From a virus (taxonomy: Duplodnaviria > Caudoviricetes): DNA of 64,000 nt. Of this stretch, positions 6,595 to 62,062 are shown in pieces (within the stretch, counting starts at the first letter, position 1; each line of letters opens with the position of its first letter). A program made the translations under genes and the position numbers. Below the pieces are notes generated by a model that worked only from the letters and a program-made list of their open reading frames with translations, was not told the DNA's origin and searched no databases. The stretch lies in IMG/VR virus record IMGVR_UViG_3300035703_002708. The stretch is one strand, 5' to 3'.

Positions 6595-6932
6595 ATGAAC
6601 CTCAATTATTCAAAATCGAGAAAGATTTTCTAAATCGACAGGACACCCTGTTGAGTGTTATTACTTTTCACGATTTGGAATTGAGTCCGATATTTTTCGT
6701 AGAAAACGAAAAATTAGTTGATGAGTATGTATATATAGATATGACCACCCACAATAGAGGAGATGGTCAGGATATTAGAGAATATATAGTAAAACTAAAA
6801 GAGGGGTATTTTCTTTATTTCTCAAGAAGACCGAATGATTCAAGATTTAATCTGAAGGTTTTTTTCGGTAGTGATAAGAAATACTCTGACATTATTTTTC
6901 AAATAAACAGATATAATAATATAAAAAAATGA
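6588..6932 (+). CDS. hypothetical protein
   Basis: 114-aa ORF in operon with overlapping neighbours. Confidence 0.6.
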   Translation: MVNEPQLFKIEKDFLNRQDTLLSVITFHDLELSPIFFVENEKLVDEYVYIDMTTHNRGDGQDIREYIVKLKEGYFLYFSRRPNDSRFNLKVFFGSDKKYSDIIFQINRYNNIKK

Positions 6933-17501: not shown

Positions 17502-17723
17502 ATGGAAAAAGAAATGGTGAATCATCCTAAACATTACGGAGGTGAGTCAAATCCATATGAGGCGATAAAGGTGATTGATGCTTGGGACTTGGATTTTTGT
17601 TTGGGTAACACAGTAAAATATATATCGAGGGCTGGAAAGAAAAGTCCTGAAAAAGAATTGGAGGATTTGAAAAAGGCTCTTTGGTACTTACAACATAAAA
17701 TAAATAAGTTAGAAAACAAATGA
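17502..17723 (+). CDS. DUF3310-like phage protein
   Basis: VNHPKHY...EAIKVI...FCLGNTVKYISRAGKK...DLKKALWYL. Confidence 0.85.
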   Translation: MEKEMVNHPKHYGGESNPYEAIKVIDAWDLDFCLGNTVKYISRAGKKSPEKELEDLKKALWYLQHKINKLENK

Positions 17724-18568
17724 TTGAAACAGGAAAGATTATAAACGGAGATTGTATTGAGGTTCTAAAAACTTTTCCTGAATCATTTATTGATTTAATT
17801 GTGACATCTCCACCCTATGGAGTAGGAATTGCATATGATGTTCACGACGATGATGTTTATTTTGAAGAATATTTAAAGTTCTCGGAGGATTGGTTAACCC
17901 AAGCATTTAGAGTGTTAAAAGATGACGGTAGAGTGGCCATTAACATTCCTTATGAAATCAATCGCCAAGATAAAGGTGGTCGGATTTTCTTTGTGTCGGA
18001 GATATACCAGATAATGAAACAAATTGGGTTTAAGTTTTTTGGTATTGTCGATTTAGAAGAAGATTCACCCCACCGAAGTAAGACCACTGCTTGGGGTAGT
18101 TGGATGAGCCCATCTTCCCCCTATATCTATAATCCTAAGGAGTGTGTGATACTTGCATATAAAAACAAACATATTAAGAAAGTAAAAGGGGAACCACAAT
18201 GGAAGGGTGAACCAACCCAAGTGGAACAAGAAGATGGAACTTATAAAACCAAGGTGGTTTATAAGGAGGAGGATAAACGTGAATTTATTGAATTAGTTTA
18301 TGGACAATGGAAATACCTTAACGATTCAAGACCGCTCACTAAGGCAACGTTCTCGATGGACATACCTACAAAGGCTATCAAGATACTATCTTACAAAAAC
18401 GATATTGTACTTGACCCATTTGCAGGAAGCGGAACAAGTCTGGTTGCGGCACAGATACTAGACCGAAGATGGATTGGTATCGAACTTTCGCCTAATTATT
18501 GTCAAGTCGCTGAAACAAGAGTAAATTACTTCAAAACACTTGAAGAGATAAAAGAAGACCAACTTTAA
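17720..18568 (+). CDS. N4-cytosine/N6-adenine DNA methyltransferase (beta class)
   Basis: IVTSPPY catalytic motif first, VLDPFAGSGT SAM motif near the C-terminus. Confidence 0.9.
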   Translation: MIETGKIINGDCIEVLKTFPESFIDLIVTSPPYGVGIAYDVHDDDVYFEEYLKFSEDWLTQAFRVLKDDGRVAINIPYEINRQDKGGRIFFVSEIYQIMKQIGFKFFGIVDLEEDSPHRSKTTAWGSWMSPSSPYIYNPKECVILAYKNKHIKKVKGEPQWKGEPTQVEQEDGTYKTKVVYKEEDKREFIELVYGQWKYLNDSRPLTKATFSMDIPTKAIKILSYKNDIVLDPFAGSGTSLVAAQILDRRWIGIELSPNYCQVAETRVNYFKTLEEIKEDQL

Positions 18569-21456: not shown

Positions 21457-21900
21457 ATGGAATTGAAAAGATACTCAGGTGTTTTAATCAGATGTAAAGA
21501 TAAAGTTTTACTTTGCCAAAGAAGTTTCGATGAGGATTCAAGACCAGGTGAGTGGTCAATTCCTTGTGGTCATCAAGAAAAAAACGAAGATAAGGTGTCT
21601 TGTGCCATAAGAGAATTATATGAAGAAACAAACATTCAAGTAAGTCCGAGAGATTTGGCTTACGTGGGTGGAATTAAAACTAACGATGAATCAAATAATT
21701 ATGTGAGAGGAATATTGAGTGTGTTTGTTATGGATTCAGATGAAGAAATTTATCCTGATTTAACAGGTGCGAAAGATGGACAAGAACACCAAGAATGTGG
21801 ATATTTTACCATAGATAATTTACCTTCACCATTAGGTTCAGGACTAAAAGAGATTATCAACAAGTTATTATCAAAAAAACTTTCAACAATTAAGTTATAA
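21457..21900 (+). CDS. Nudix hydrolase
   Basis: Nudix box GHQEKNEDKVSCAIRELYEETNI. Confidence 0.88.
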   Translation: MELKRYSGVLIRCKDKVLLCQRSFDEDSRPGEWSIPCGHQEKNEDKVSCAIRELYEETNIQVSPRDLAYVGGIKTNDESNNYVRGILSVFVMDSDEEIYPDLTGAKDGQEHQECGYFTIDNLPSPLGSGLKEIINKLLSKKLSTIKL

Positions 21901-23559: not shown

Positions 23560-24000
23560 GTGAAAAGGTTTATTGTCATTTTGTCAGTTATTTTGGGTTT
23601 TATGACATCTTGTCAGAAAGAGGACCCTATTGACCCTCCGACATATAATCAAATCAATCAACCACCAACTACTGATATTCCTAAATTTGCTGGCTCCACT
23701 TGGGTAATATATAAGTTTCAACCCTTATATTTCGTGACCGACCCAGAGTTAGTCACCGATACTTTGATATTCATCAATAACACCGAACTAAAATATAATG
23801 GTGTTTCTTGTGAATACTCTTTTTACCCAAGTGGATATCTGTGGTATTTCGAACTAAAACAAACTCCGAGATTTATTGGAAGTATAAATGCGTTTTTAAG
23901 TGAAGGACCAATCAATTATGGTGAGATTTTGGCACAAGAATATACAAATGTTTACAACCGAAACCAAAAATGGTTGGTTTGGATGAAAAAAGTAAATTGA
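23560..24000 (+). CDS. lipoprotein
   Basis: Signal peptide II (FMTS-C) followed by QKED, resembling the Bacteroidota surface export signal. Confidence 0.7.
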   Translation: MKRFIVILSVILGFMTSCQKEDPIDPPTYNQINQPPTTDIPKFAGSTWVIYKFQPLYFVTDPELVTDTLIFINNTELKYNGVSCEYSFYPSGYLWYFELKQTPRFIGSINAFLSEGPINYGEILAQEYTNVYNRNQKWLVWMKKVN

Positions 24001-24005
24001 CCCTC

Positions 24006-24034
24006 TTGACCTTTTAAATCACAATTCTTATACT
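24006..24034 (+). promoter_or_regulatory. sigma70-like promoter of the TROVE gene
   Basis: TTGACC, 17 nt, TATACT. Confidence 0.6.
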
Positions 24035-24070
24035 TTCTAAACAAATTCGTCAAAAAAAAATTGTACTAAT

Positions 24071-25696
24071 ATGGCAAAGTTCCGAAATTCCGCAGTTGTA
24101 GAAAAATTAGATAACACCCCACCCAAAGAAAACTTGGTTGCATCAAACGCAGTTCCGAAACCCGATACGACAAATCTTCAAGGGTTCGAGGCTTATTCAA
24201 TTGAAAATTGGCTCCGTCTGATTTCTATTTTGAATACTTCTAAATTGGAGAACCAGTATTATCGTTCAGAAACAGAAACTATGAAAGAGTTGAAATCTCT
24301 TGTGGATATCTGTGGTAAAGAGGACCCATACTTTGTGGCTCAGTGTATCGTGTATTCTCGTTGTATTGGTGAGGGTATGAGAAGTATTAATCACTTGGCG
24401 GCAGTTTATCTTGCTCCATTTATGAGTGGTAAAGACTGGTCAAAACGTTTCTTCTCAGGTTGGGATAAGAAATCTCAAAAAGGAGGTACCGTGTTTCGTC
24501 CTGATGATATGAGTGAGATGGTTAGTTGTTTTACCGCCCTTAATGGTAAGTCAATCACCAACTCAATGAAAAAAGGTTTTGCCTCTACGTTAGAGAAACT
24601 TGACACATACTCACTTTTGAAGTATAAGAGTTCGATTTTGGATTTGTTCAATTTGGTTCATCCAAAACAAGAAAACTCAAACGCCACCGTTGAATTCGAA
24701 GGTAGGGTTGTTCCAACATTTGAAGCCATCGTTAAAGGTTATAATGTGTCTGCTGACACTTGGGAGGTTGCTCAGTCAGATGCTGGACAAATTGTGGCTC
24801 AGGCGGTTCGTGAAGGTAAAATCTCAACAGAAGAAGCAAAACAAGTTCTTACTGAGGCAAAGTCTGAGAATTGGAAAGGATTACTTACCGAAAACAAACT
24901 TGGTATCTTGGCAGCAGTTCGTAACATTCGTAACATTCTGTTGAACAAACCTGATGGTGACACTATTAATAAGTTGTGTTCTCTTTTGAGTGATGAAGCC
25001 GCAATTCGTAACGGAAAGGTAATGCCATACCAATTAGATATGGCTAACGAAGTTCTAATATCAGAATTTAACGATTCTAACTCTCGTAAGGTATCAAAGG
25101 CGTTACTTGATGGTTATGAAAAATCCATTCCGAACCTTGCTGAGTTACTTACAGGTAACAACCTTGTAATGATTGATATGTCAGGTTCTATGAACACAGG
25201 AATCAATGACCCTAAAGGCAAGTCACGTTACAAATCTACGTGTTTGGACAAGGCATCACTAATCGGTATGACAATCGCCAAGGCAGTAAACGCCGATGTA
25301 ATTCGTTTCGGTTCACACGCTGAGTATGTTTCTTACAATACAAACTCTGATGTGTTCAGTTTGTCTAAATCTATCATTCAAGGAATGGGAGGAACCTCAC
25401 TGGCACAAGCGTGGAGTACGGCAGAAGCATCAGGTCGTAAGTATGATAGAGTATTTATTCTGTCAGATAATGAGTGTAATGAAGGTTCAACTTACTCTCG
25501 ATACAAGAGTTATGTTGAAAAAGTTGGGGACCCGTATGTCTATTCAATAGACCTAGCCGCTTACGGAACAATGGCTATCGCGGGACCAAAAGTAAGATAC
25601 TACTACGGATATGGTTTTTCAATGTTCGAAGATATTGCAAAATCAGAGTTCAACCCGATGCACCACATCGAAAAAATCCGCAAAGTAGAAATCTAA
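24071..25696 (+). CDS. rsr: Ro60/Rsr-like TROVE-vWA RNA-binding protein
   Basis: 541 aa; TROVE-like N-terminus (DPYFVAQCIVYSR..GMRS, KYK..I.DLFNLVHPK, TWE, ALVRNLRN-like AAVRNIRN); vWA MIDAS DMSGSM, GGT, LSDNE. Confidence 0.92.
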   Translation: MAKFRNSAVVEKLDNTPPKENLVASNAVPKPDTTNLQGFEAYSIENWLRLISILNTSKLENQYYRSETETMKELKSLVDICGKEDPYFVAQCIVYSRCIGEGMRSINHLAAVYLAPFMSGKDWSKRFFSGWDKKSQKGGTVFRPDDMSEMVSCFTALNGKSITNSMKKGFASTLEKLDTYSLLKYKSSILDLFNLVHPKQENSNATVEFEGRVVPTFEAIVKGYNVSADTWEVAQSDAGQIVAQAVREGKISTEEAKQVLTEAKSENWKGLLTENKLGILAAVRNIRNILLNKPDGDTINKLCSLLSDEAAIRNGKVMPYQLDMANEVLISEFNDSNSRKVSKALLDGYEKSIPNLAELLTGNNLVMIDMSGSMNTGINDPKGKSRYKSTCLDKASLIGMTIAKAVNADVIRFGSHAEYVSYNTNSDVFSLSKSIIQGMGGTSLAQAWSTAEASGRKYDRVFILSDNECNEGSTYSRYKSYVEKVGDPYVYSIDLAAYGTMAIAGPKVRYYYGYGFSMFEDIAKSEFNPMHHIEKIRKVEI

Positions 25697-25708
25697 TGGG
25701 GATTAGTT

Positions 25709-25739
25709 ATGGGGTGAATGGTTGATTCACCCCATTTTT
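25709..25739 (+). terminator. intrinsic terminator after TROVE
   Basis: ATGGGGTGAA/TTCACCCCAT 10-bp stem plus T-run. Confidence 0.85.
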
Positions 25740-25759
25740 CAAAAAAACAATCAACCCAC

Positions 25760-25808
25760 TTGACTGGTGTCAAAAGTTTGATTAATATTGTCACATAGTT
25801 CTTTAAAA
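25760..25808 (+). promoter_or_regulatory. promoter and boxA-like leader of the ncRNA unit
   Basis: TTGACT-N17-TAATAT, then GTTCTTTAAAA (25798-25808) resembling rRNA/tRNA-operon boxA. Confidence 0.5.
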
Positions 25809-25812
25809 AATA

Positions 25813-25939
25813 GACGTAGTAAGATTAGGGTTACTTCAATACATCGGTTCGAATCCGATACCTGTGAAAACAGGTTAGACAAGTGGATAAGTCGGAATTC
25901 TCATAAATTCAAAACAACACCCTGTTCATCATTCTCGTC
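25813..25939 (+). ncRNA. Y RNA-like element 1 (YrlA-like, permuted tRNA mimic)
   Basis: Paired ends; T arm ATCGG-TTCGAAT-CCGAT; closed acceptor ACCTGT-GAAA-ACAGGT; D arm GAC-AAGTGGATAA-GTC; GAATT-CTCATA-AATTC arm; directly downstream of Ro60. Confidence 0.85.
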
Positions 25940-25948
25940 ACCTTATAC

Positions 25949-26027
25949 TTTAAGGTAGTAAGTTAAGTGTTACTTCGAAATAATCTGGAAATGTTCAAAA
26001 AAAAACACTTACGATATTCTCCTTAAA
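25949..26027 (+). ncRNA. Y RNA-like element 2 (minimal)
   Basis: Same scaffold TAGTAA...GTTACTTC / AACAC...ATTCT; closing stem TTTAAGG/CCTTAAA. Confidence 0.7.
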
Positions 26028-26035
26028 TCGTTCTT

Positions 26036-26168
26036 TTCAGATAGTAATTCAAGAGTTACTTCTACAATTTAAATTAAATCGCGCCCTATATGGGCATCTA
26101 TCTATGAACGAAATCTAACCTTCGGGTTATTTTTCACCTAAAAACACTCTTGGAAAAATTCTTCTGAA
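26036..26168 (+). ncRNA. Y RNA-like element 3
   Basis: Same scaffold; closing TTCAGA/TCTGAA; internal GCCC-TATAT-GGGC and TAACC-TTCG-GGTTA hairpins. Confidence 0.72.
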
Positions 26169-26175
26169 TTCATTT

Positions 26176-26206
26176 AAAAAGGGGACCATCGGGTCTCCTT
26201 TTTTTG
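26176..26206 (+). terminator. intrinsic terminator of the ncRNA unit
   Basis: AAAAAGGGGACC...GGTCTCCTTTTTTT. Confidence 0.8.
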
Positions 26207-26239
26207 TTTTATACACTATTTATAAAAAAAGGACATACT

Positions 26240-26545
26240 ATGGTTAATATAATGATTTCTGAAGAACAACTTGCCAGATTGGTTAATAAAATGAAACCAG
26301 TTAATGAAAGCAAAGATGGTAGTTATATGGCAAAACAACAACTATTTACCATCGCTACAATGGCTCACGAAATGTGGCAAGCGTTGGATGAGGGAGAACA
26401 ATTGGACGATTGGATGGAATCAAAAATCGCACAAGCAGACCAAAGTATTACTTCCGTTGTTAAGGCTTATTTCTATGATGAGATAACCGATGACCAAAAA
26501 GGAATGGGAATGTTGAATTACGATGATTTAGTAATAGGAAAATAA
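26240..26545 (+). CDS. hypothetical, probable virion protein
   Basis: TATTTAT at 26217; MISEEQLARL...VNES leader; start at internal Met. Confidence 0.6.
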   Translation: MVNIMISEEQLARLVNKMKPVNESKDGSYMAKQQLFTIATMAHEMWQALDEGEQLDDWMESKIAQADQSITSVVKAYFYDEITDDQKGMGMLNYDDLVIGK

Positions 26546-28174: not shown

Positions 28175-29508
28175 ATGACACAAGAAGATTTTGAAAATCA
28201 TTTGAAACCCGCATATGAAGTTTATCTGAAAGAACATAAGTCAGAACCTTTTGTTTTATTGGATGAGTGCGATTTGACATATCAAGAATTTTTGAATAAA
28301 ATTAGAAGTCGGTATTCATTTGCCCATATGTGGGGCGTAGACCTCAAGGTAGAGTTGTTATCAGACGAAGAAAGATACAAAATTTGGTATGGAAATAATT
28401 TTGAGACAGGATTTGAATATAATCCAAAAATTTTACCTAACTTTGATGACGAATATTGGGAACCAACACCAATAAAGAAATTTGTTTTAACTTACAATAA
28501 CAAAACATTTGAATTTTACGAACCTTCAAAATAAATAAGACATGGGAAAAGTAATTTTAGAATTTGATTCAGTTGAAGAGTCACAAGATGCAAGAGTTGC
28601 ATTGGACGCCATGAAATGGAAGATGTCGATGTGGGACTTGGACCAAAAACTTCGCACGGTCACAAAACACGGTATTAAATTTTCAAGTAACAACCAAGAA
28701 GCAACATCAGAAGAAATCGATTTTGCCGATAAAGTTCGTGAAGAAATCCGAGACATACTTAATGGTTATGGTTTAAATTTAGAAGATTAAGTTATGAACA
28801 GAGAAATTAAAAAAGGAAATCTTAACTATGACCAATCAGGTAGAGCATATCCTGATAATCCTGAAATTAAGGAAAATTGGGATTGTATTTGGGAAAATAA
28901 TGGTAAATATTATGAGTTGGTTGGTGACAATGAACATAAGGAGTGGGAAGAAGTCAGTAATAGAATGAAAATCAACAGAGAAGAACTATACAAACTCTAT
29001 ATGGAGTGGGTGGAACAAGTTACGGAGGAATGTGATTGGAAGACTTCATTTGGTCCTGAAGAAATAGTTGGAGCAATTGCTACCATTTTAGAAAATAATC
29101 CACATTTGTATGAGTAAAGAATTAATCTCTAAACTTTTAAAGGCATCTCAAGAAATTGATAGAACACCCAAAGCCAATTACATCCATTTAACTACACACT
29201 TTATTCAAAGTGAGGCTGATAAAAATGGGGTTACATTTGATGAAATGGTTGAAATTATTGAGAATGTCTTGAATCCAAAACAATAGAAAGTTATGAATGA
29301 TATAAATAAACTAATAGAACAAGGTAAAGAATTGGCTCGTAAACACGAAGAAATTCGTGATGAAATTCTAAACAATCCTGATATGGCTCAGGAATTAAAA
29401 GATATTATCATTAAAAATAGAATACCCGATGATAATGTTATCGATTTATCTGGGGGTAAAAGAATAAAAAGAATAGACCCTGACACATTTGAAATTGAAT
29501 ATGAATAA
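28175..29508 (+). other. small hypothetical CDS (28175-28534, 28542-28790, 28794-29117, 29110-29286, 29293-29508)
   Basis: Co-oriented, tightly packed ORFs. Confidence 0.6.
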
Positions 29509-30631
29509 CATCGATAAGCAATACCAAGCACTCCTACAAGACATACTTGACAATGGAGTTGAGAAGAAAGACCGCACAGGAACTGGTACCATTTCAGTGT
29601 TTGGTAGACAAATCCGTCATAAAATGTCTGATGGGTTTCCACTACTCACAACAAAGAAAATGGCTTGGAAAACTATGGTAACAGAATTACTGTGGTTTTT
29701 AAAAGGTGATACTAATATCAAATACCTTGTTGATAATGATTGTCATATTTGGGATGGTGATGCGTATAAGAACTTCAAGAGTAGATTTAGTCAAATGCCT
29801 GGCATTCAATCTTCGCTTCCTACAAAAGAAGAGTTTATCGATAAAATAAAAAATCAAGATGGATATGCTGAATTGTGGGGTGAATTAGGACCAATTTATG
29901 GTAAACAGTGGAGAAAATGGGAAGTAAATGAACCCAAAGAAATTTTAAGAACTGAAAATGTTACTTGGCCTTATGAACCAAACCCACACACATACCAACA
30001 AAGGGTAGGTACGTTCAAGATAAAACAAATAGACCAAATCCAAAATTTAATCAACAACCTTAAAACAAACCCAGACTCAAGACGATTAATGGTTAATGCT
30101 TGGAATGTAGGTGAATTGGACCAAATGGTTCTTCCACCCTGTCATTATGGATTTCAAGTTTATACAAGAGAGTTGAGTAGAGATGAACGATTTAGATTAT
30201 ATGTCAAAAGAGATAACCCATTATACCCTTTAAATGTTAAAGATGTTAACGAGTATTTAACATTGATAGGAATACCTAAACGAGCAATCTCTTTAATGTG
30301 GAATCAACGTTCAGTAGATACATTCTTAGGTTTACCATTCAATATTGCTAGTTATGGTTTGCTGCTTGAAATTATTGCTAAGGAAATAAATATGGTACCT
30401 GATGAATTGATTGGAAACTTAGGTGATGTACATCTTTATAGTAACCATGTTGAACAGGCTAAGGAACAAATTAGTAGAAAACCATTTGAGTTGCCTAAAT
30501 TAAATATTTTTGAACCAGCAATCGGTAAAGAAATATCTATACTGGATAATTTACATATATGGTCACCTAATTGTTTTATTATAGAAAACTATCAATCACA
30601 CCCCACCATTAAAGCACCTTTATCCAATTAA
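29501..30631 (+). CDS. thyA: thymidylate synthase
   Basis: DRTGTGT, FPLLTTKK, ELLWFL, LGPIYGKQWR, MVLPPCH, QRSVDTFLGLPFNIASY, GDVHLYSNH. Confidence 0.97.
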   Translation: MNNIDKQYQALLQDILDNGVEKKDRTGTGTISVFGRQIRHKMSDGFPLLTTKKMAWKTMVTELLWFLKGDTNIKYLVDNDCHIWDGDAYKNFKSRFSQMPGIQSSLPTKEEFIDKIKNQDGYAELWGELGPIYGKQWRKWEVNEPKEILRTENVTWPYEPNPHTYQQRVGTFKIKQIDQIQNLINNLKTNPDSRRLMVNAWNVGELDQMVLPPCHYGFQVYTRELSRDERFRLYVKRDNPLYPLNVKDVNEYLTLIGIPKRAISLMWNQRSVDTFLGLPFNIASYGLLLEIIAKEINMVPDELIGNLGDVHLYSNHVEQAKEQISRKPFELPKLNIFEPAIGKEISILDNLHIWSPNCFIIENYQSHPTIKAPLSN

Positions 30632-34505: not shown

Positions 34506-34532
34506 TCCCTCATTTATTGAGGGATTTTTTTT
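34506..34532 (+). terminator. intrinsic terminator
   Basis: TCCCTCA/TGAGGGA plus T8. Confidence 0.75.
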
Positions 34533-34563
34533 GCCCGTACATAAACAAATAAAAATAAAAAAA

Positions 34564-35373
34564 ATGGAAGACATTTTAATCTACAACGAATTAATTCAGA
34601 AACTCAGATTTTTCTTTCTGAAAAGGGGATATGTTGAGGTCCCAACACAATCAAACTTATCAATCTTGGCGGCTTGTGAAAACCCACAGTCAATTGTCAA
34701 ATATGTATTTGACGGACAAGAATGGCCTATGATTCAAACAGGTCAAATGGTATTAGAAGAAGTATTACTTAAAAATCCTGATTGGGAAGGAGTATTTTGT
34801 ATCACAACATCTTATAGAGATGAGAAGGACCCAATACCTGGAAGACACAACAAAGTGTTCCCTATGTTTGAATTTGAATCAAAAGGTGGGTTTGAAGAGT
34901 TAAAGCAAGTAGAAAAAGAATTACTTGAATATCTAGGTTTCAGAACACCACTTGAAGTCACATACGAAGATATGTGTAAAAAATATAACACAAGTATTGT
35001 TGAAGCAGAGCACGAGACAAAAATGTGGAGTAATCTCGGAACGTCAATCTCATTACAGAAGTTTCCTAAAAGAACATCACCTTTTTTCAATATGAAATCA
35101 GAAGATGGAGAAACATTTCAAAAGATTGATGTGATTCTTTTTGGTATGGAAACAATCGGAAGTGCGGTGAGAAGTTCTGACCCTGTTATGATGAGAAAAA
35201 TGTTTTATGAAATCTCAGATGGTGAATATGCCGGTAAATTATTTGAGTTATTCGGCAGAGAAAGAGTTGAAAAAGAATTGGAAGAATTTTTATCTAACAA
35301 GTTCTTTGACAGGTTCGGTGCTGGTATTGGAATGACCAGATTAATGAGAGCGTACCAATTACTAAAACAATAA
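34564..35373 (+). CDS. class II aaRS catalytic-domain-only protein (Asn/Asp/Lys type; AsnA-like or EpmA-like)
   Basis: Motif 1 GYVEVPT, motif 2 SYRDE...RHNKVFPMFEFE, ETIGS, motif 3 GAGIGMTRL; no anticodon-binding OB domain. Confidence 0.85.
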   Translation: MEDILIYNELIQKLRFFFLKRGYVEVPTQSNLSILAACENPQSIVKYVFDGQEWPMIQTGQMVLEEVLLKNPDWEGVFCITTSYRDEKDPIPGRHNKVFPMFEFESKGGFEELKQVEKELLEYLGFRTPLEVTYEDMCKKYNTSIVEAEHETKMWSNLGTSISLQKFPKRTSPFFNMKSEDGETFQKIDVILFGMETIGSAVRSSDPVMMRKMFYEISDGEYAGKLFELFGRERVEKELEEFLSNKFFDRFGAGIGMTRLMRAYQLLKQ

Positions 35374-58449: not shown

Positions 58450-58558
58450 GGTCAGGTGGCGAAATGGTAGACGCATAGTGTTAGGTCTAATTAGACACGT
58501 TTGAAACAGAACTCCACTATTGTAGACGTACATACAGGTTCGAATCCTGTTCTGACCA
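58450..58558 (+). ncRNA. tRNA-like RNA A (Leu-type frame, anticodon loop replaced by 34 nt)
   Basis: GGTCAGG/TCTGACC acceptor; GCGAAATGGTAGACGC D arm; TAGTG/CACTA stem; TGTA-GACG-TACA variable arm; ACAGG-TTCGAAT-CCTGT T arm. Confidence 0.85.
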
Positions 58559-58773: not shown

Positions 58774-58861
58774 GGTCAGATGGCGGAATTGGATAGACGC
58801 TACCCTATATTTGGGGGAGAGGTGAAAGAAACTCATACAGGTTCGAGACCTGTTCTGACCA
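58774..58861 (+). ncRNA. tRNA-like RNA B (non-canonical anticodon arm)
   Basis: GGTCAGA/TCTGACC; GCGGAATTGGATAGACGC; ACCCT-ATATTTG-GGGGA arm lacking U33; ACAGG-TTCGAGA-CCTGT. Confidence 0.8.
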
Positions 58862-58918
58862 CTATAACGCTCCTAAGATATATTTAGGTTTTCTTATATT
58901 TATATATAAAACAAAATT

Positions 58919-61827: not shown

Positions 61828-61897
61828 TAGTCAGGACAGGATTCGAACCTGCATCTCCCGTACCAATACGAGGCGTTACCAATTACGCCACCTGACT
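61828..61897 (-). ncRNA. tRNA-like RNA C (anticodon loop reduced to 4 nt)
   Basis: rc: AGTCAGG TG GCGTAATTGGTAACGC C TCGTA-TTGG-TACGG GAGAT GCAGG-TTCGAAT-CCTGT CCTGACT A. Confidence 0.85.
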
Positions 61898-61953
61898 AAC
61901 CCCTTTGTTTTACTTCAGAGACGGGTACTCTTGCATAACATTTAATCTGTTAG

Positions 61954-62062
61954 CAGTCAGGACAGGATTCGAACCTGTATGATAAGTAGTAAAGTTATGG
62001 AAGTGACAATGTACTTACTTATCTATTCACTTCTAGCGTCTAACCAATTCCGCCACCTGACT
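61954..62062 (-). ncRNA. tRNA-like RNA D (expanded anticodon/variable region)
   Basis: rc: AGTCAGG/CCTGACT acceptor; GCGGAATTGGTTAGACGC; GAAGTGA-20nt-TCACTTC; ACAGG-TTCGAAT-CCTGT. Confidence 0.85.

What the first reader, a model, noticed from the sequence alone, without database searches (positions are those of the whole stretch)
25813..25939. Y-like RNA 1 is a near-complete circularly permuted tRNA keeping a CAU anticodon-like arm
Seen in order: T arm (25843-59), acceptor stem sealed by a GAAA tetraloop (25860-75), UA, D arm with GG (25878-93), G, then GAATT-CUCAUA-AAUUC, one nucleotide short of the CUCAUAA loop of tRNA-Met/Ile2. The Ro-type stem occupies the variable-arm position. Known: YrlA RNAs mimic tRNA with T, closed acceptor and D arms. 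Inference: a non-chargeable whole-tRNA mimic that could bait anticodon nucleases, modifying enzymes or ribosomes and deliver them to Ro60.
Basis: partly seen in the sequence, partly recalled or inferred. Interest (0 to 1): 0.85.

Follow-up and report, generated by a model that had tools for sequence, protein, structure and literature searches.

The report
Phage Y RNA: complete permuted tRNA
Just after a phage's Ro60 gene lies a small RNA gene whose middle is a whole tRNA cloverleaf with its strand order rotated, including an anticodon arm that published bacterial Y RNAs lack; about 30 related phages carry the same design, so it is a real, apparently undescribed variant of the tRNA-mimicking Y RNAs.

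Summary
Observation confirmed. Window 25813-25939 (+) holds, in order, a bulged closing stem, T arm, GAAA-capped 6-bp acceptor stem, UA, D arm, G, and a 5-bp hairpin with loop CUCAUA. It is the first of three tandem Y-like RNAs in their own promoter-to-terminator unit behind a Ro60 (TROVE+vWA) gene.

A covariance model found 30 distinct full-length homologues in phage contigs. Twenty of 27 loci also hold a Ro60 gene on the same strand. All helices covary, the anticodon arm included. The 15-48 tertiary pair covaries in 29 of 30. After strand order is rotated back, ARAGORN calls all 30 as tRNAs.

Relatives have 7-nt loops with U33 and R37 and 16 different triplets; CAU is commonest. The window clade lost one loop base.

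Published YrlA lacks an anticodon loop, and Rfam YrlA (RF02553) does not match here. I therefore file it as a new variant of a known kind: the Ro60 stem leaves from the variable-loop position.

The whole-tRNA mimic is supported. The bait function is plausible but untested.

Earlier notes of this scan report other phage Y-RNA/tRNA chimeras with different wiring on other DNA.

The parts
24071..25696 (+). Phage Ro60 orthologue (541 aa; TROVE ring plus vWA domain with a DxSGS MIDAS motif)
   Evidence: phrog_850 at 1.4e-32. Single-sequence PDB match to 9KOP/9L5Y at 2e-10. A profile of 11 homologues hits 9KOP/9L5Y (Thermus phage phiLo Ro60) at 2.5e-28, Xenopus Ro60 1YVP at 6e-15, human RO60 at 9e-15 and D. 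radiodurans Rsr 2NVO at 3e-11. Pfam TROVE and vWA_Ro60 match only below threshold.
25709..25740 (+). Hairpin plus T-run ending the Ro60 transcription unit
   Evidence: Perfect 11-nt inverted repeat 25709-19/25725-35 followed by TTTTT.
25760..25788 (+). Promoter-like site for the three-RNA unit (TTGACT, 17 nt, TAATAT)
   Evidence: Consensus scan. Conserved in L001 and L002. Consensus match only, not shown to be used.
25813..25939 (+). Y-like RNA 1, whole molecule as predicted from end pairing (G25813-C25939)
   Evidence: Fold; R1 116.6 bits; independent model R2 105 bits, E 1e-20. Contigs from three metatranscriptome runs cover it with 0 differences: 25757-25974, 25783-25936 and 25819-25988.
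25813..25831 (+). 5' strand of the Ro60-type bulged stem, with conserved GUAGUAA at 25816-22
   Evidence: Shared by all three window RNAs. Helices 1 and 2 covary in 11 of 11 pairs.
25830..25837 (+). Invariant GUUACUUC motif, the probable Ro60 contact
   Evidence: Invariant in alignment A1. In a Streptomyces YrlA the same motif aligns to the gCgaAUG (GNCGAA) positions of Rfam RF02553.
25838..25842 (+). AAUAC, equivalent to the 3' part of the variable loop; C25842 is position 48
   Evidence: Position 48 covaries with position 15 (G25883): A-U 15, G-C 14, other 1.
25843..25859 (+). T arm: 5 bp plus loop UUCGAAU
   Evidence: 100% of cells paired; G53-C61 invariant.
25860..25875 (+). Closed acceptor stem: 6 bp capped by a GAAA tetraloop
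   Evidence: All 7 model pairs covary. L002 has a wholly different 7-bp stem at the same place.
25876..25894 (+). U8-A9 linker, D arm (3 bp; A14, G15, G18G19, A21) and G26
25895..25910 (+). Anticodon arm: GAAUU-CUCAUA-AAUUC (5 bp; 6-nt loop with C32, U33, C34 A35 U36, A37; position 38 missing)
   Evidence: Pair probability 0.70-0.85. All 5 pairs covary with 2-5 pair types each. Relatives have 7-nt loops. The rotated-back sequence is called tRNA-??? with a 2-nt anticodon 'ca' by ARAGORN.
25911..25939 (+). A-rich linker AAAACAAC, then the 3' strand of the Ro-type stem with conserved UUCUC at 25932-36
25950..26028 (+). Y-like RNA 2: same frame with a short unstructured insert
   Evidence: R2 43.4 bits, E 3e-7; fold.
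26036..26170 (+). Y-like RNA 3: same frame with non-tRNA hairpins (GCCC/GGGC and a UUCG-capped stem)
   Evidence: R2 33.9 bits, E 4e-5; fold z = -3.7.
26176..26203 (+). Intrinsic terminator closing the three-RNA unit
   Evidence: 12-pair stem plus T-run.

Best explanation
RNA 1 is a phage-encoded Y RNA of the YrlA kind. It is made with two sister Y-like RNAs from its own unit just behind the phage's Ro60 gene. Its paired ends, together with the conserved GUAGUAA, GUUACUUC and UUCUC elements, form the handle that docks on Ro60. The rest folds into a complete tRNA cloverleaf in rotated strand order: T arm, closed acceptor stem, D arm and a separate anticodon arm. The Ro60 handle leaves the fold where a class II tRNA has its long variable arm. 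As encoded it cannot be charged, because the acceptor is a sealed 6-bp stem.

Most likely it works as other Y RNAs do, as a tether. The handle holds Ro60, and the tRNA-shaped module is recognised by tRNA-binding proteins. The added anticodon stem-loop (Met/Ile2-type CUCAUA) extends that mimicry to factors that read the anticodon end.

Shown here: the anatomy, its conservation and covariation, the linkage to Ro60, and presence in RNA libraries. Inferred: Ro60 binding, the L-shaped fold in three dimensions, and any partner that reads the anticodon arm.
For: Anatomy and energetics.

Family: 30 distinct full-length homologues at 79-137 bits. Every helix covaries, and the anticodon arm has 2-5 pair types at each of its 5 pairs. 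An independent model built without the window clade finds the window copy at E 1e-20.

tRNA-type tertiary signature: position 15 covaries with position 48 in 29 of 30; window G-C against close relative L002 A-U. U8, A14, G18G19 and the UUCGAAU loop are present.

Rotated back, 30 of 30 are called tRNA by ARAGORN, while the native order is not.

Loop syntax: U33 in 29 of 30, purine 37 in 30 of 30, while positions 34-36 vary. CAU persists on six different stems. Between the window and L002 (88% Ro60 identity) the acceptor stem is completely replaced but the anticodon arm is identical at 16 of 16 bases.

Ro60 link: the protein is a Ro60 orthologue. Twenty of 27 loci with the RNA hold a Ro60 homologue on the same strand. 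Ro60 is the only neighbouring gene shared beyond the closest relatives.

Published precedent: YrlA tRNA mimicry and modification by TruB and DusA (PMC4201824); the L-shaped YrlA crystal structure (10.1101/312249); a phage Ro60 that binds phage Y-like RNAs and host PNPase (PMC12135203); a Ro60-like phage protein that counters a defence system (PMC11482910).

Weak support for expression: separate zero-mismatch contigs over RNA 1 in three metatranscriptome runs from two studies.
Against: No direct evidence of transcript ends, Ro60 binding, fold or partners. Contigs from RNA libraries can derive from contaminating DNA.

The window clade's loop has 6 nt, not 7, which would distort a true anticodon loop.

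Sixteen different triplets occur in the family, including A34 types (AAU, AAA, AAG, AGG) and UUA. This argues against one specific anticodon reader.

The handle differs from the published GNCGAA Ro60 motif, and Rfam YrlA does not match.

Alignment A3 was fitted to the model's structure, which favours pairing, although the MAFFT seed already showed the pairs.
Confidence: 0.6

Rival explanations
1. The structure is as described, but the anticodon-like arm is only scaffolding or a relic. It would be inherited from the tRNA ancestor and kept because a hairpin stacked under the D stem stabilises the L-shape or protects against nucleases. No factor reads the loop.
For: The triplet varies widely, and some triplets are not used by bacterial decoders. 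The window clade tolerates a 6-nt loop. Some cellular YrlA-like RNAs carry tetraloop-capped hairpins at this position, for example L290 and L263. The YrlA literature itself proposes nuclease protection as one role of the tRNA fold (PMC4201824).
Against: U33 and purine 37 are kept in 29 and 30 of 30. A pure spacer would drift towards stable tetraloops, as those cellular examples did. CUCAUA(A) is retained across six unrelated stem sequences, and the arm stays 16 of 16 identical where the acceptor stem was wholly replaced.
Confidence: 0.28
2. It is a precursor of a working tRNA. RNase P and 3' trimming or CCA addition would open the acceptor loop and give a two-piece, chargeable 'split tRNA' held together by the Ro-type stem. 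This would resemble the permuted pre-tRNAs of algae and archaea, or the cleavage of M. smegmatis YrlA.
For: Several relatives have a 7-bp acceptor stem whose loop starts GCCA (L008 twice, L048, L207, L148) or GCA (L006, L147, L226, L160), like an encoded discriminator plus CCA. M. smegmatis YrlA is cleaved by RNase P and receives CCA (PMC4201824). Many related Ro60 loci sit inside large phage tRNA islands.
Against: The window copy has a 6-bp stem sealed by GAAA with no CCA, and a 6-nt anticodon loop. A34 and UUA 'anticodons' occur in relatives. The long two-stranded arm at the variable position, presumably bound by Ro60, is hard to reconcile with ribosome use. No bacterial enzyme is known that would excise and ligate it (10.1101/312249).
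Confidence: 0.08
3. It is an ordinary YrlA fold. GAAUU (25895-99) would pair with the conserved ACUUC (25833-37) to make the usual 'anticodon stem' from the two RNA ends, and there would be no separate arm.
For: Four of five pairs are possible in the window copy (sequence). This is the published YrlA topology (10.1101/312249; RF02553 consensus).
Against: Pair probability is about 0 against about 0.84 for the hairpin. In relatives the 5' strand of the hairpin changes (ACGGU, ACUGU, GCAAU, UCUAA and others) while ACUUC stays invariant, so that pairing is not maintained; the local hairpin covaries at all 5 pairs.
Confidence: 0.03
4. It is not an RNA gene: the stretch belongs to the 56-codon open frame 25788-25958.
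For: An ORF is listed mechanically.
Against: Changes between relatives are compensatory in stems, and indels are not multiples of three; the acceptor region is 16 nt in the window and 20 nt in L002. The unit has its own promoter-like site and terminator and no coding-type conservation.
Confidence: 0.01

Closest known systems
YrlA (Y RNA-like A; Rfam RF02553) of bacteria and actinobacteriophages (Chen et al. 2014, PMC4201824; structure in Wang et al. 2018, bioRxiv 10.1101/312249)
   Same: Encoded beside Ro60 on the same strand. Paired ends form the Ro60 handle. Internal order is T arm, closed acceptor stem, UA, D arm. The Levitt 15-48 pair covaries. The conserved motif containing YUAY (GUUACUUC) sits at the junction. 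It is a non-chargeable tRNA mimic.
   Different: Published YrlA 'lacks the anticodon loop': its anticodon-stem equivalent is made by the two RNA ends and runs on into the Ro60 module, and any extra hairpin (V) lies 5' of the T arm. Here a self-contained 5-bp anticodon arm follows the D arm after a single nucleotide, and the Ro60 stem leaves from the variable-loop position. The D stem (3 bp, GAC/GUC) and T stem sequences differ from the nearly invariant YrlA ones. RF02553 gives no match at E up to 10, but does match a Streptomyces locus at 2e-9.
Deinococcus radiodurans Yrn1 (Chen et al. 2014)
   Same: A Ro60-bound Y RNA with a T arm and a proposed 'anticodon arm' of 5 bp with a 6-nt loop, the same loop length as the window copy.
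   Different: Yrn1 is in normal (unpermuted) order with the Ro60 stem at the acceptor position. Its D arm is doubtful, and it has no closed acceptor stem.
Circularly permuted tRNA genes of Cyanidioschyzon merolae and some archaea (Soma et al. 2007, as discussed in 10.1101/312249)
   Same: The 3' half comes before the 5' half, the acceptor end is initially closed by a loop, and all four arms are present.
   Different: Those junctions lie in loops flanked by a bulge-helix-bulge motif that is excised and ligated to give a working tRNA. Here the ends form a conserved Ro60-type stem at the variable position. No such splicing machinery is known in bacteria, and the window copy lacks CCA and has a short anticodon loop.
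Thermus phage phiLo Ro60 with Yrl1/Yrl2 (PMC12135203; PDB 9KOP, 9L5Y)
   Same: This is the closest solved relative of the window's Ro60. It is a phage Ro60 with tandem phage-encoded Y-like RNAs next to the gene. Binding was shown in vitro, and the complex recruits host PNPase.
   Different: The phiLo Yrls are described as stem-bulge-stem RNAs with a CGAA motif; no tRNA-like module or anticodon arm is reported.
[quoted passage not shown]
   Same: A whole-tRNA-like non-coding RNA linked to RNA-repair loci and occasionally to Rsr. It resembles the normal-order tRNA cargos seen inside the same Y frame in relatives (L008, L009).
   Different: It is in normal strand order and has no Ro-type closing stem. 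I know it only second-hand; the original paper was not readable here.

Membership tests
YrlA-class Y RNA (Chen 2014; Rfam RF02553) | Encoded within a few kb of a Ro60/Rsr orthologue, on the same strand | tested here: met
   The RNA starts 117 nt after the Ro60 stop codon, on the same strand. The same holds in 20 of 27 related loci.
YrlA-class Y RNA (Chen 2014; Rfam RF02553) | T arm, closed acceptor-like stem-loop, UA, D arm in that 5'-to-3' order, with tRNA tertiary signatures (Levitt pair covariation) | tested here: met
   Positions 15-48: A-U 15, G-C 14, other 1.
YrlA-class Y RNA (Chen 2014; Rfam RF02553) | Anticodon-stem equivalent formed by the 5' and 3' strands and continuous with the Ro60 module; no anticodon loop | tested here: not met
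   A local 5-bp hairpin with an anticodon-type loop is present and covaries; the end-to-end pairing is not conserved.
YrlA-class Y RNA (Chen 2014; Rfam RF02553) | Match to the Rfam covariance model RF02553 | tested here: not met
   No RF02553 match at E up to 10 over 25600-26300. Positive control: Streptomyces locus L251 matches at 46.5 bits, E 2e-9.
YrlA-class Y RNA (Chen 2014; Rfam RF02553) | 5' Ro60-binding motif GNCGAAN0-1G | tested here: inconclusive
   GACGUAG at 25813-19 differs from the motif by one base, and relatives vary there. The invariant GUUACUUC occupies the model positions of gCgaAUG in the control alignment. Binding itself is not testable here.
YrlA-class Y RNA (Chen 2014; Rfam RF02553) | Nearly invariant D- and T-stem sequences (GCUC/GAGC; GCGGG/CCCGC type) | tested here: not met
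   The window has GAC/GUC and AUCGG/CCGAU. The RF02553 consensus is shown.
Y RNA in the functional sense (Ro60-bound) | Physical association with Ro60 | not testable with these tools
   Only genetic linkage is available, plus precedent for a phage Ro60 binding adjacent Yrls (PMC12135203).
tRNA (functional) | Standard cloverleaf in normal order, recognised by tRNA finders | tested here: not met
   ARAGORN and Rfam tRNA find nothing at 25813-25939. It is recognised only after strand order is rotated back in silico, and then as tRNA-??? with a 2-nt anticodon.
tRNA (functional) | Free 3' CCA acceptor end and 7-nt anticodon loop | tested here: not met
   The acceptor is sealed by GAAA, and the loop is CUCAUA, 6 nt.
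Ro60/TROVE protein (the neighbouring gene) | TROVE HEAT-repeat ring plus C-terminal vWA domain with a MIDAS motif | tested here: met
   The profile hits 1YVP, 9NEN, 2NVO and 9KOP across residues ~22-528. D369, S371, G372 and S373 are invariant. Pfam models match only below threshold.

The most novel reading that the evidence does not exclude
Freshwater phages carry sets of Ro60-tethered, non-chargeable tRNA decoys. Each would display a different genuine-looking anticodon stem-loop: CAU in this phage, and GCA, UGA, UAU, CUU, GUA and others elsewhere, sometimes two per phage. These would intercept host anticodon-targeting defence nucleases or toxins and hand them, or the damaged RNA, to Ro60 and its partners. 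That would make this an anti-defence system specified by the anticodon.
Probability: 0.2. Interest if true: 0.85.

Novelty: new variant of a known kind. Interest (0 to 1): 0.62.

Why it matters
Y RNAs are known to mimic the tRNA elbow, but what that mimicry is for has remained open. A subclass that also keeps a proper anticodon stem-loop narrows the list of candidate partners. That loop has U33 and purine 37 conserved, and its triplets differ between phages and between paralogues. The likely partners are therefore proteins that read the anticodon end: anticodon nucleases, synthetases, and loop-modifying enzymes such as TilS, the t6A machinery or MiaA. This makes the question directly testable.

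The finding also bears on origins. Some members have a 7-bp acceptor stem followed by GCCA, and all have a full anticodon arm. They look like little-eroded descendants of a permuted or tandem tRNA, which is the origin proposed for YrlA.

In relatives the same Ro60 handle also frames normal-order tRNA-like cargo. This suggests a modular 'Ro60 frame plus tRNA cargo' design in phage tRNA islands.

Tried and rejected
- Rfam at gathering scores and at E up to 10: no Y RNA, YrlA or tRNA match on the stretch.
- ARAGORN on the native sequence: nothing.
- blastn of 24000-26300 against 50,697 deposited phage genomes: no match.
- tblastn of the Ro60 protein against those genomes: best hit 33% identity, in a 635-kb uncultured phage. 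That phage's Ro60 neighbourhood holds only a minimal frame RNA. No cultured phage carrying this RNA was found.
- The second pattern also hits ordinary tRNAs by chance, so hits were filtered and then re-scored with the covariance model.
- Cellular genomes: in the 100 cellular loci scored with R1 (of 120 fetched that share the motif), none scores above 49 bits, against 79-137 for the phage set. The scan was row-capped, so absence from cells is not proven.
- The window's own genome is not held.
- Contigs from RNA libraries cover RNA 1, but they cannot show strand, ends or transcription; parts without cover are not interpreted.
- No neighbouring protein other than Ro60 is conserved beyond the closest relatives, so no candidate partner gene emerged.
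- The reviews by Sim and Wolin (2018, 2020) and Burroughs and Aravind (2016) were not readable here. An earlier description of this variant cannot be excluded.
- No protein-RNA complex prediction was attempted, because the tool takes proteins only.

Full report
**1. What is in the sequence**

The stretch lies 117 nt downstream of a 541-codon gene at 24071-25696 (+). That gene ends in a perfect hairpin plus T-run (25709-25740). A promoter-like site follows (TTGACT, 17 nt, TAATAT; 25760-25788). Then come three tandem modules and one intrinsic terminator at 26176-26203.

The three modules share a 5' element, RTAGTAA...AGNGTTACTTC (at about 25817, 25956 and 26042). They also share a 3' element, TTCA...AAACAC...TTCTC.

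- closing stem;
- AAUAC;
- T arm ATCGG-TTCGAAT-CCGAT (25843-59);
- ACCTGT-GAAA-ACAGGT (25860-75);
- TA;
- D arm GAC-AAGTGGATAA-GTC (25878-93);
- G;
- GAATT-CTCATA-AATTC (25895-25910);
- AAAACAAC;
- 3' strand of the closing stem.

The minimum-free-energy fold reproduces this five-way junction. The CAU hairpin has pair probabilities of 0.70-0.85. The alternative in which GAAUU pairs with the conserved ACUUC, which is the published YrlA wiring, has probability about 0.

**2. The neighbouring gene is a Ro60 orthologue**

- Pfam sees TROVE and vWA_Ro60 only below threshold.
- PHROG 850 ('RNA-binding protein') matches at 1e-32.
- The single sequence hits PDB 9KOP/9L5Y at 2e-10.
- A profile of 11 homologues hits 9KOP/9L5Y at 2.5e-28, Xenopus Ro60 (1YVP) at 6e-15, human RO60 at 9e-15 and D. 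radiodurans Rsr (2NVO) at 3e-11.
- The MIDAS motif DxSGS is invariant.

9KOP/9L5Y is the Ro60 of Thermus phage phiLo. That protein was shown to bind two adjacent phage Y-like RNAs and to assemble with host PNPase (PMC12135203).

**3. Homologues and covariation**

Nine IMG/VR contigs encode 63-98% identical Ro60 proteins, each with arrays of similar RNAs beside the gene. A pattern scan joining the frame motif to a T loop brought in more phage contigs.

I built covariance model R1 from 15 sequences with a hand-set structure. It found 30 distinct full-length matches at 79-137 bits.

On their alignment:
- 98.5% of cells form standard pairs;
- 28 of 31 pairs show changes on both sides;
- the covariation score is 0.77, against 0.18 in column shuffles (0 of 500 reach it) and 0.06-0.11 when partners are slid by 1-3 columns.

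The five anticodon-stem pairs each show two to five pair types, for example AU 12, UA 10, CG 3, GC 3.

That alignment was fitted to the model, which favours pairing. However, the MAFFT seed alignment already showed the same pairs.

As an independent check I built R2 from the 27 sequences outside the window's own clade. It finds window 25811-25943 at 105 bits, E 1e-20, and aligns every arm with a single-base deletion in the anticodon loop.

**4. It is a whole tRNA in rotated order**

- Position 15 in the D loop covaries with the last base before the T stem (position 48): A-U 15, G-C 14, other 1. The window (G-C) and its close relative L002 (A-U) differ by exactly this double change. This is the Levitt pair that Chen et al. 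used as the hallmark of tRNA mimicry in YrlA (PMC4201824).
- U8, A14, G18G19, A21 and the UUCGAAU loop are all present.
- I rotated the strand order back in silico: acceptor 5' strand, UA, D arm, N26, anticodon arm, the five bases before the T stem, T arm, acceptor 3' strand. Neutral A-runs and an added ACCA tail flanked each construct. ARAGORN called 30 of 30 constructs as tRNA genes, 27 of them with a normal 7-nt loop. The window, L001 and L002 came out as 'tRNA-???' with a 2-nt anticodon because their loop has 6 nt.
- In native order neither ARAGORN nor Rfam tRNA sees anything here.

**5. The anticodon arm in the family**

The loops follow anticodon-loop syntax: C32 in 25 of 30, U33 in 29 of 30, purine 37 in 30 of 30, while positions 34-36 vary. 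Counts per triplet:
- CAU 9
- UGA 5
- UAU 3
- GCA 2
- AAU 2
- AAA 2
- UCC, CUU, AAG, AGG, GUA, UAA, UAG, UUA: 1 each

CUCAUA(A) sits on six different stem sequences: GAAUU, ACGGU, ACUGU, AUCGU, UCUGA and UCUAA. It is identical to the loop of the genuine CAU tRNAs in the same phages.

Between the window and L002 the acceptor stem is wholly replaced (16 nt against 20 nt) and the D loop has three changes. The anticodon arm is still identical at 16 of 16 bases.

A single phage can carry two such RNAs with different triplets: L008 has CAU and GCA; L177 has AAG and GUA.

These facts argue that the loop is under selection. The A34 triplets and UUA argue against these RNAs being ordinary decoders.

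**6. Link to Ro60 and distribution**

- Twenty of the 27 loci holding the RNA also hold a Ro60 homologue (28-98% identity) in the same stretch and on the same strand, either before or after the RNA.
- Ro60 is the only window gene shared beyond the closest relatives.
- Many relatives place the cassette inside phage tRNA islands of 19-38 tRNA genes.
- In the collected phage loci the same frame is followed by a T loop (the permuted type) in 33 distinct cases. In 32 distinct cases it is followed directly by a normal-order, ARAGORN-callable tRNA.
- In cellular genomes the motif GUUACUUC plus a T loop is common in YrlA-like loci of Streptomyces, Acidobacteriota and Bacteroidota. None of the 100 sampled loci exceeds 49 bits with R1. 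In this row-capped sample the arm-bearing type is therefore confined to phages.
- No cultured phage carries it.

**7. Expression**

Three metatranscriptome runs from two studies each hold a separate contig over RNA 1 with no differences: 25757-25974, 25783-25936 and 25819-25988. These are distinct from the contigs over the Ro60 frame. This shows presence in RNA libraries. It does not show transcription, strand or ends.

**8. Comparison with what is known**

In published YrlA, T, closed acceptor and D arms lie in this order. The 'anticodon stem' is made by the two RNA ends and runs on into the Ro60 module. 'YrlA lacks the anticodon loop', and an optional V hairpin lies 5' of the T arm (PMC4201824; 10.1101/312249). 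The Rfam RF02553 consensus has the same wiring.

- RF02553 does not match the window even at E up to 10. It does match a Streptomyces control locus at 2e-9.
- In that control alignment GGUUACUU occupies the positions of the GNCGAA Ro60 motif. The invariant GUUACUUC here is therefore most likely the Ro60 contact; this is inference.
- D. radiodurans Yrn1 has a proposed 5-bp, 6-nt-loop 'anticodon arm', but in normal order with Ro60 at the acceptor end.
- Wang et al. already noted the likeness of YrlA to the circularly permuted pre-tRNAs of algae and archaea.

The present RNA is thus a YrlA relative that fails three of the family's defining features: the wiring of the anticodon stem, the conserved stem sequences, and the model match. 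It works like YrlA, but with a fuller mimic. I file it as a new variant of a known kind.

I found no description of it in the papers I could search. The two Sim and Wolin reviews and Burroughs and Aravind 2016 were not readable.

**9. Mechanism**

The best-supported reading is a Ro60-tethering, non-chargeable whole-tRNA mimic. Its anticodon arm would extend recognition to factors that read the anticodon end.

Phage context and precedent make an anti-defence or RNA-damage role attractive:
- phiLo Ro60 forms a complex with its Yrl RNAs and host PNPase (PMC12135203);
- a Ro60-like protein of phage Bas63 counters the Ppl defence system (PMC11482910);
- jumbo-phage TROVE proteins are discussed as RNA-repair platforms (PMC7824862).

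Nothing here tests that role. The main rival is that the arm is merely structural or a relic.

A precursor of a split, chargeable tRNA is unlikely for the window copy, given the GAAA cap, 6-bp stem and 6-nt loop. It is not excluded for relatives whose acceptor loop begins GCCA or GCA, given that M. smegmatis YrlA is cut by RNase P and receives CCA (PMC4201824).

**10. Earlier notes of this scan**

Notes on this window agree on the Ro60 plus three-RNA unit. Notes on other phages describe different Y-RNA/tRNA chimeras, in which a Ro-binding hairpin is grafted into normal-order tRNAs. Those notes gave me the RF02553 accession, which I then tested myself. They are not independent evidence.

Noticed in passing
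L008:4711-4838, L008:4851-4980, L009:3592-3724, L006:6520-6651 and others: In related phages the same Ro60-type frame (GUAGUAA...GUUACUUC ... UUCUC) encloses normal-order tRNA-like cargo that ARAGORN can call (Lys UUU, Ile GAU, Pro, Leu CAG and others). Part of the conserved motif (CUUC) serves as the acceptor 5' strand. There are 32 distinct cases, against 33 of the permuted type, in the collected loci.
   Followed up: partly
L008:5238-5387, L008:1340-1488, L048:5102-5246, L207:5619-5765, L148:6856-6999 (acceptor loops): In several permuted members a 7-bp acceptor stem (AUUUUCC/GGAAAAU) is followed directly by GCCA; others have GCA. This looks like an encoded discriminator plus CCA. It could be a relic of a tandem or permuted tRNA ancestor, or a processing site.
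   Followed up: partly
window 25950-26028 and 26036-26170: Y-like RNAs 2 and 3 share the frame but carry non-tRNA inserts: a short A-rich loop in RNA 2, and GCCC/GGGC and UUCG-capped hairpins in RNA 3. Both are found by the independent model R2 (43 and 34 bits).
   Followed up: partly
window 58450-58558 (+), 58774-58862 (+), 61828-61897 (-), and about 61900-62015 (-): A small family of odd tRNA-like genes shares the start GGUCAGGUGGCG. One has a 32-nt insert in the anticodon region and one has a 6-nt anticodon loop (ARAGORN 'tRNA-???', anticodon 'tg'). On the minus strand, tandem copies with the same acceptor sequence give a weak 'permuted' hit with R2 (33.7 bits).
   Followed up: partly
window 34531-35373 (+): A 280-aa class II aminoacyl-tRNA synthetase catalytic core with no anticodon-binding domain (Pfam tRNA-synt_2 1.8e-9; phrog_29758 1e-89), about 9 kb from the Y RNA unit.
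   Followed up: partly
L192, L207, L148, L048, L193, L008 (whole loci): In many relatives the Ro60/Y-RNA cassette sits inside very dense phage tRNA islands (19-38 tRNA genes in 8-13 kb). The window phage has no such island around its cassette.
   Followed up: no
window 25802-25808 and 26030-26036; L008 about 4690; L009 about 3568: The short motif GTTCTTT recurs just upstream of several Y-like modules (window RNAs 1 and 3, and relatives). It may be a processing or promoter element.
   Followed up: no
L290 about 6746-6881 (Pontibacter); L263 (Bradyrhizobium): Some cellular YrlA-like RNAs carry a tetraloop-capped hairpin (GCAA or UUCG) right after the D arm, at the place where the phage RNAs have a 7-nt anticodon-type loop.
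   Followed up: no
window 17720-18568, 455-1300, 21457-21900, 29489-30631: Ordinary phage accessory genes: two DNA methyltransferases, a NUDIX hydrolase and a thymidylate synthase. Most large ORFs in the window match no PHROG or Pfam family.
   Followed up: no
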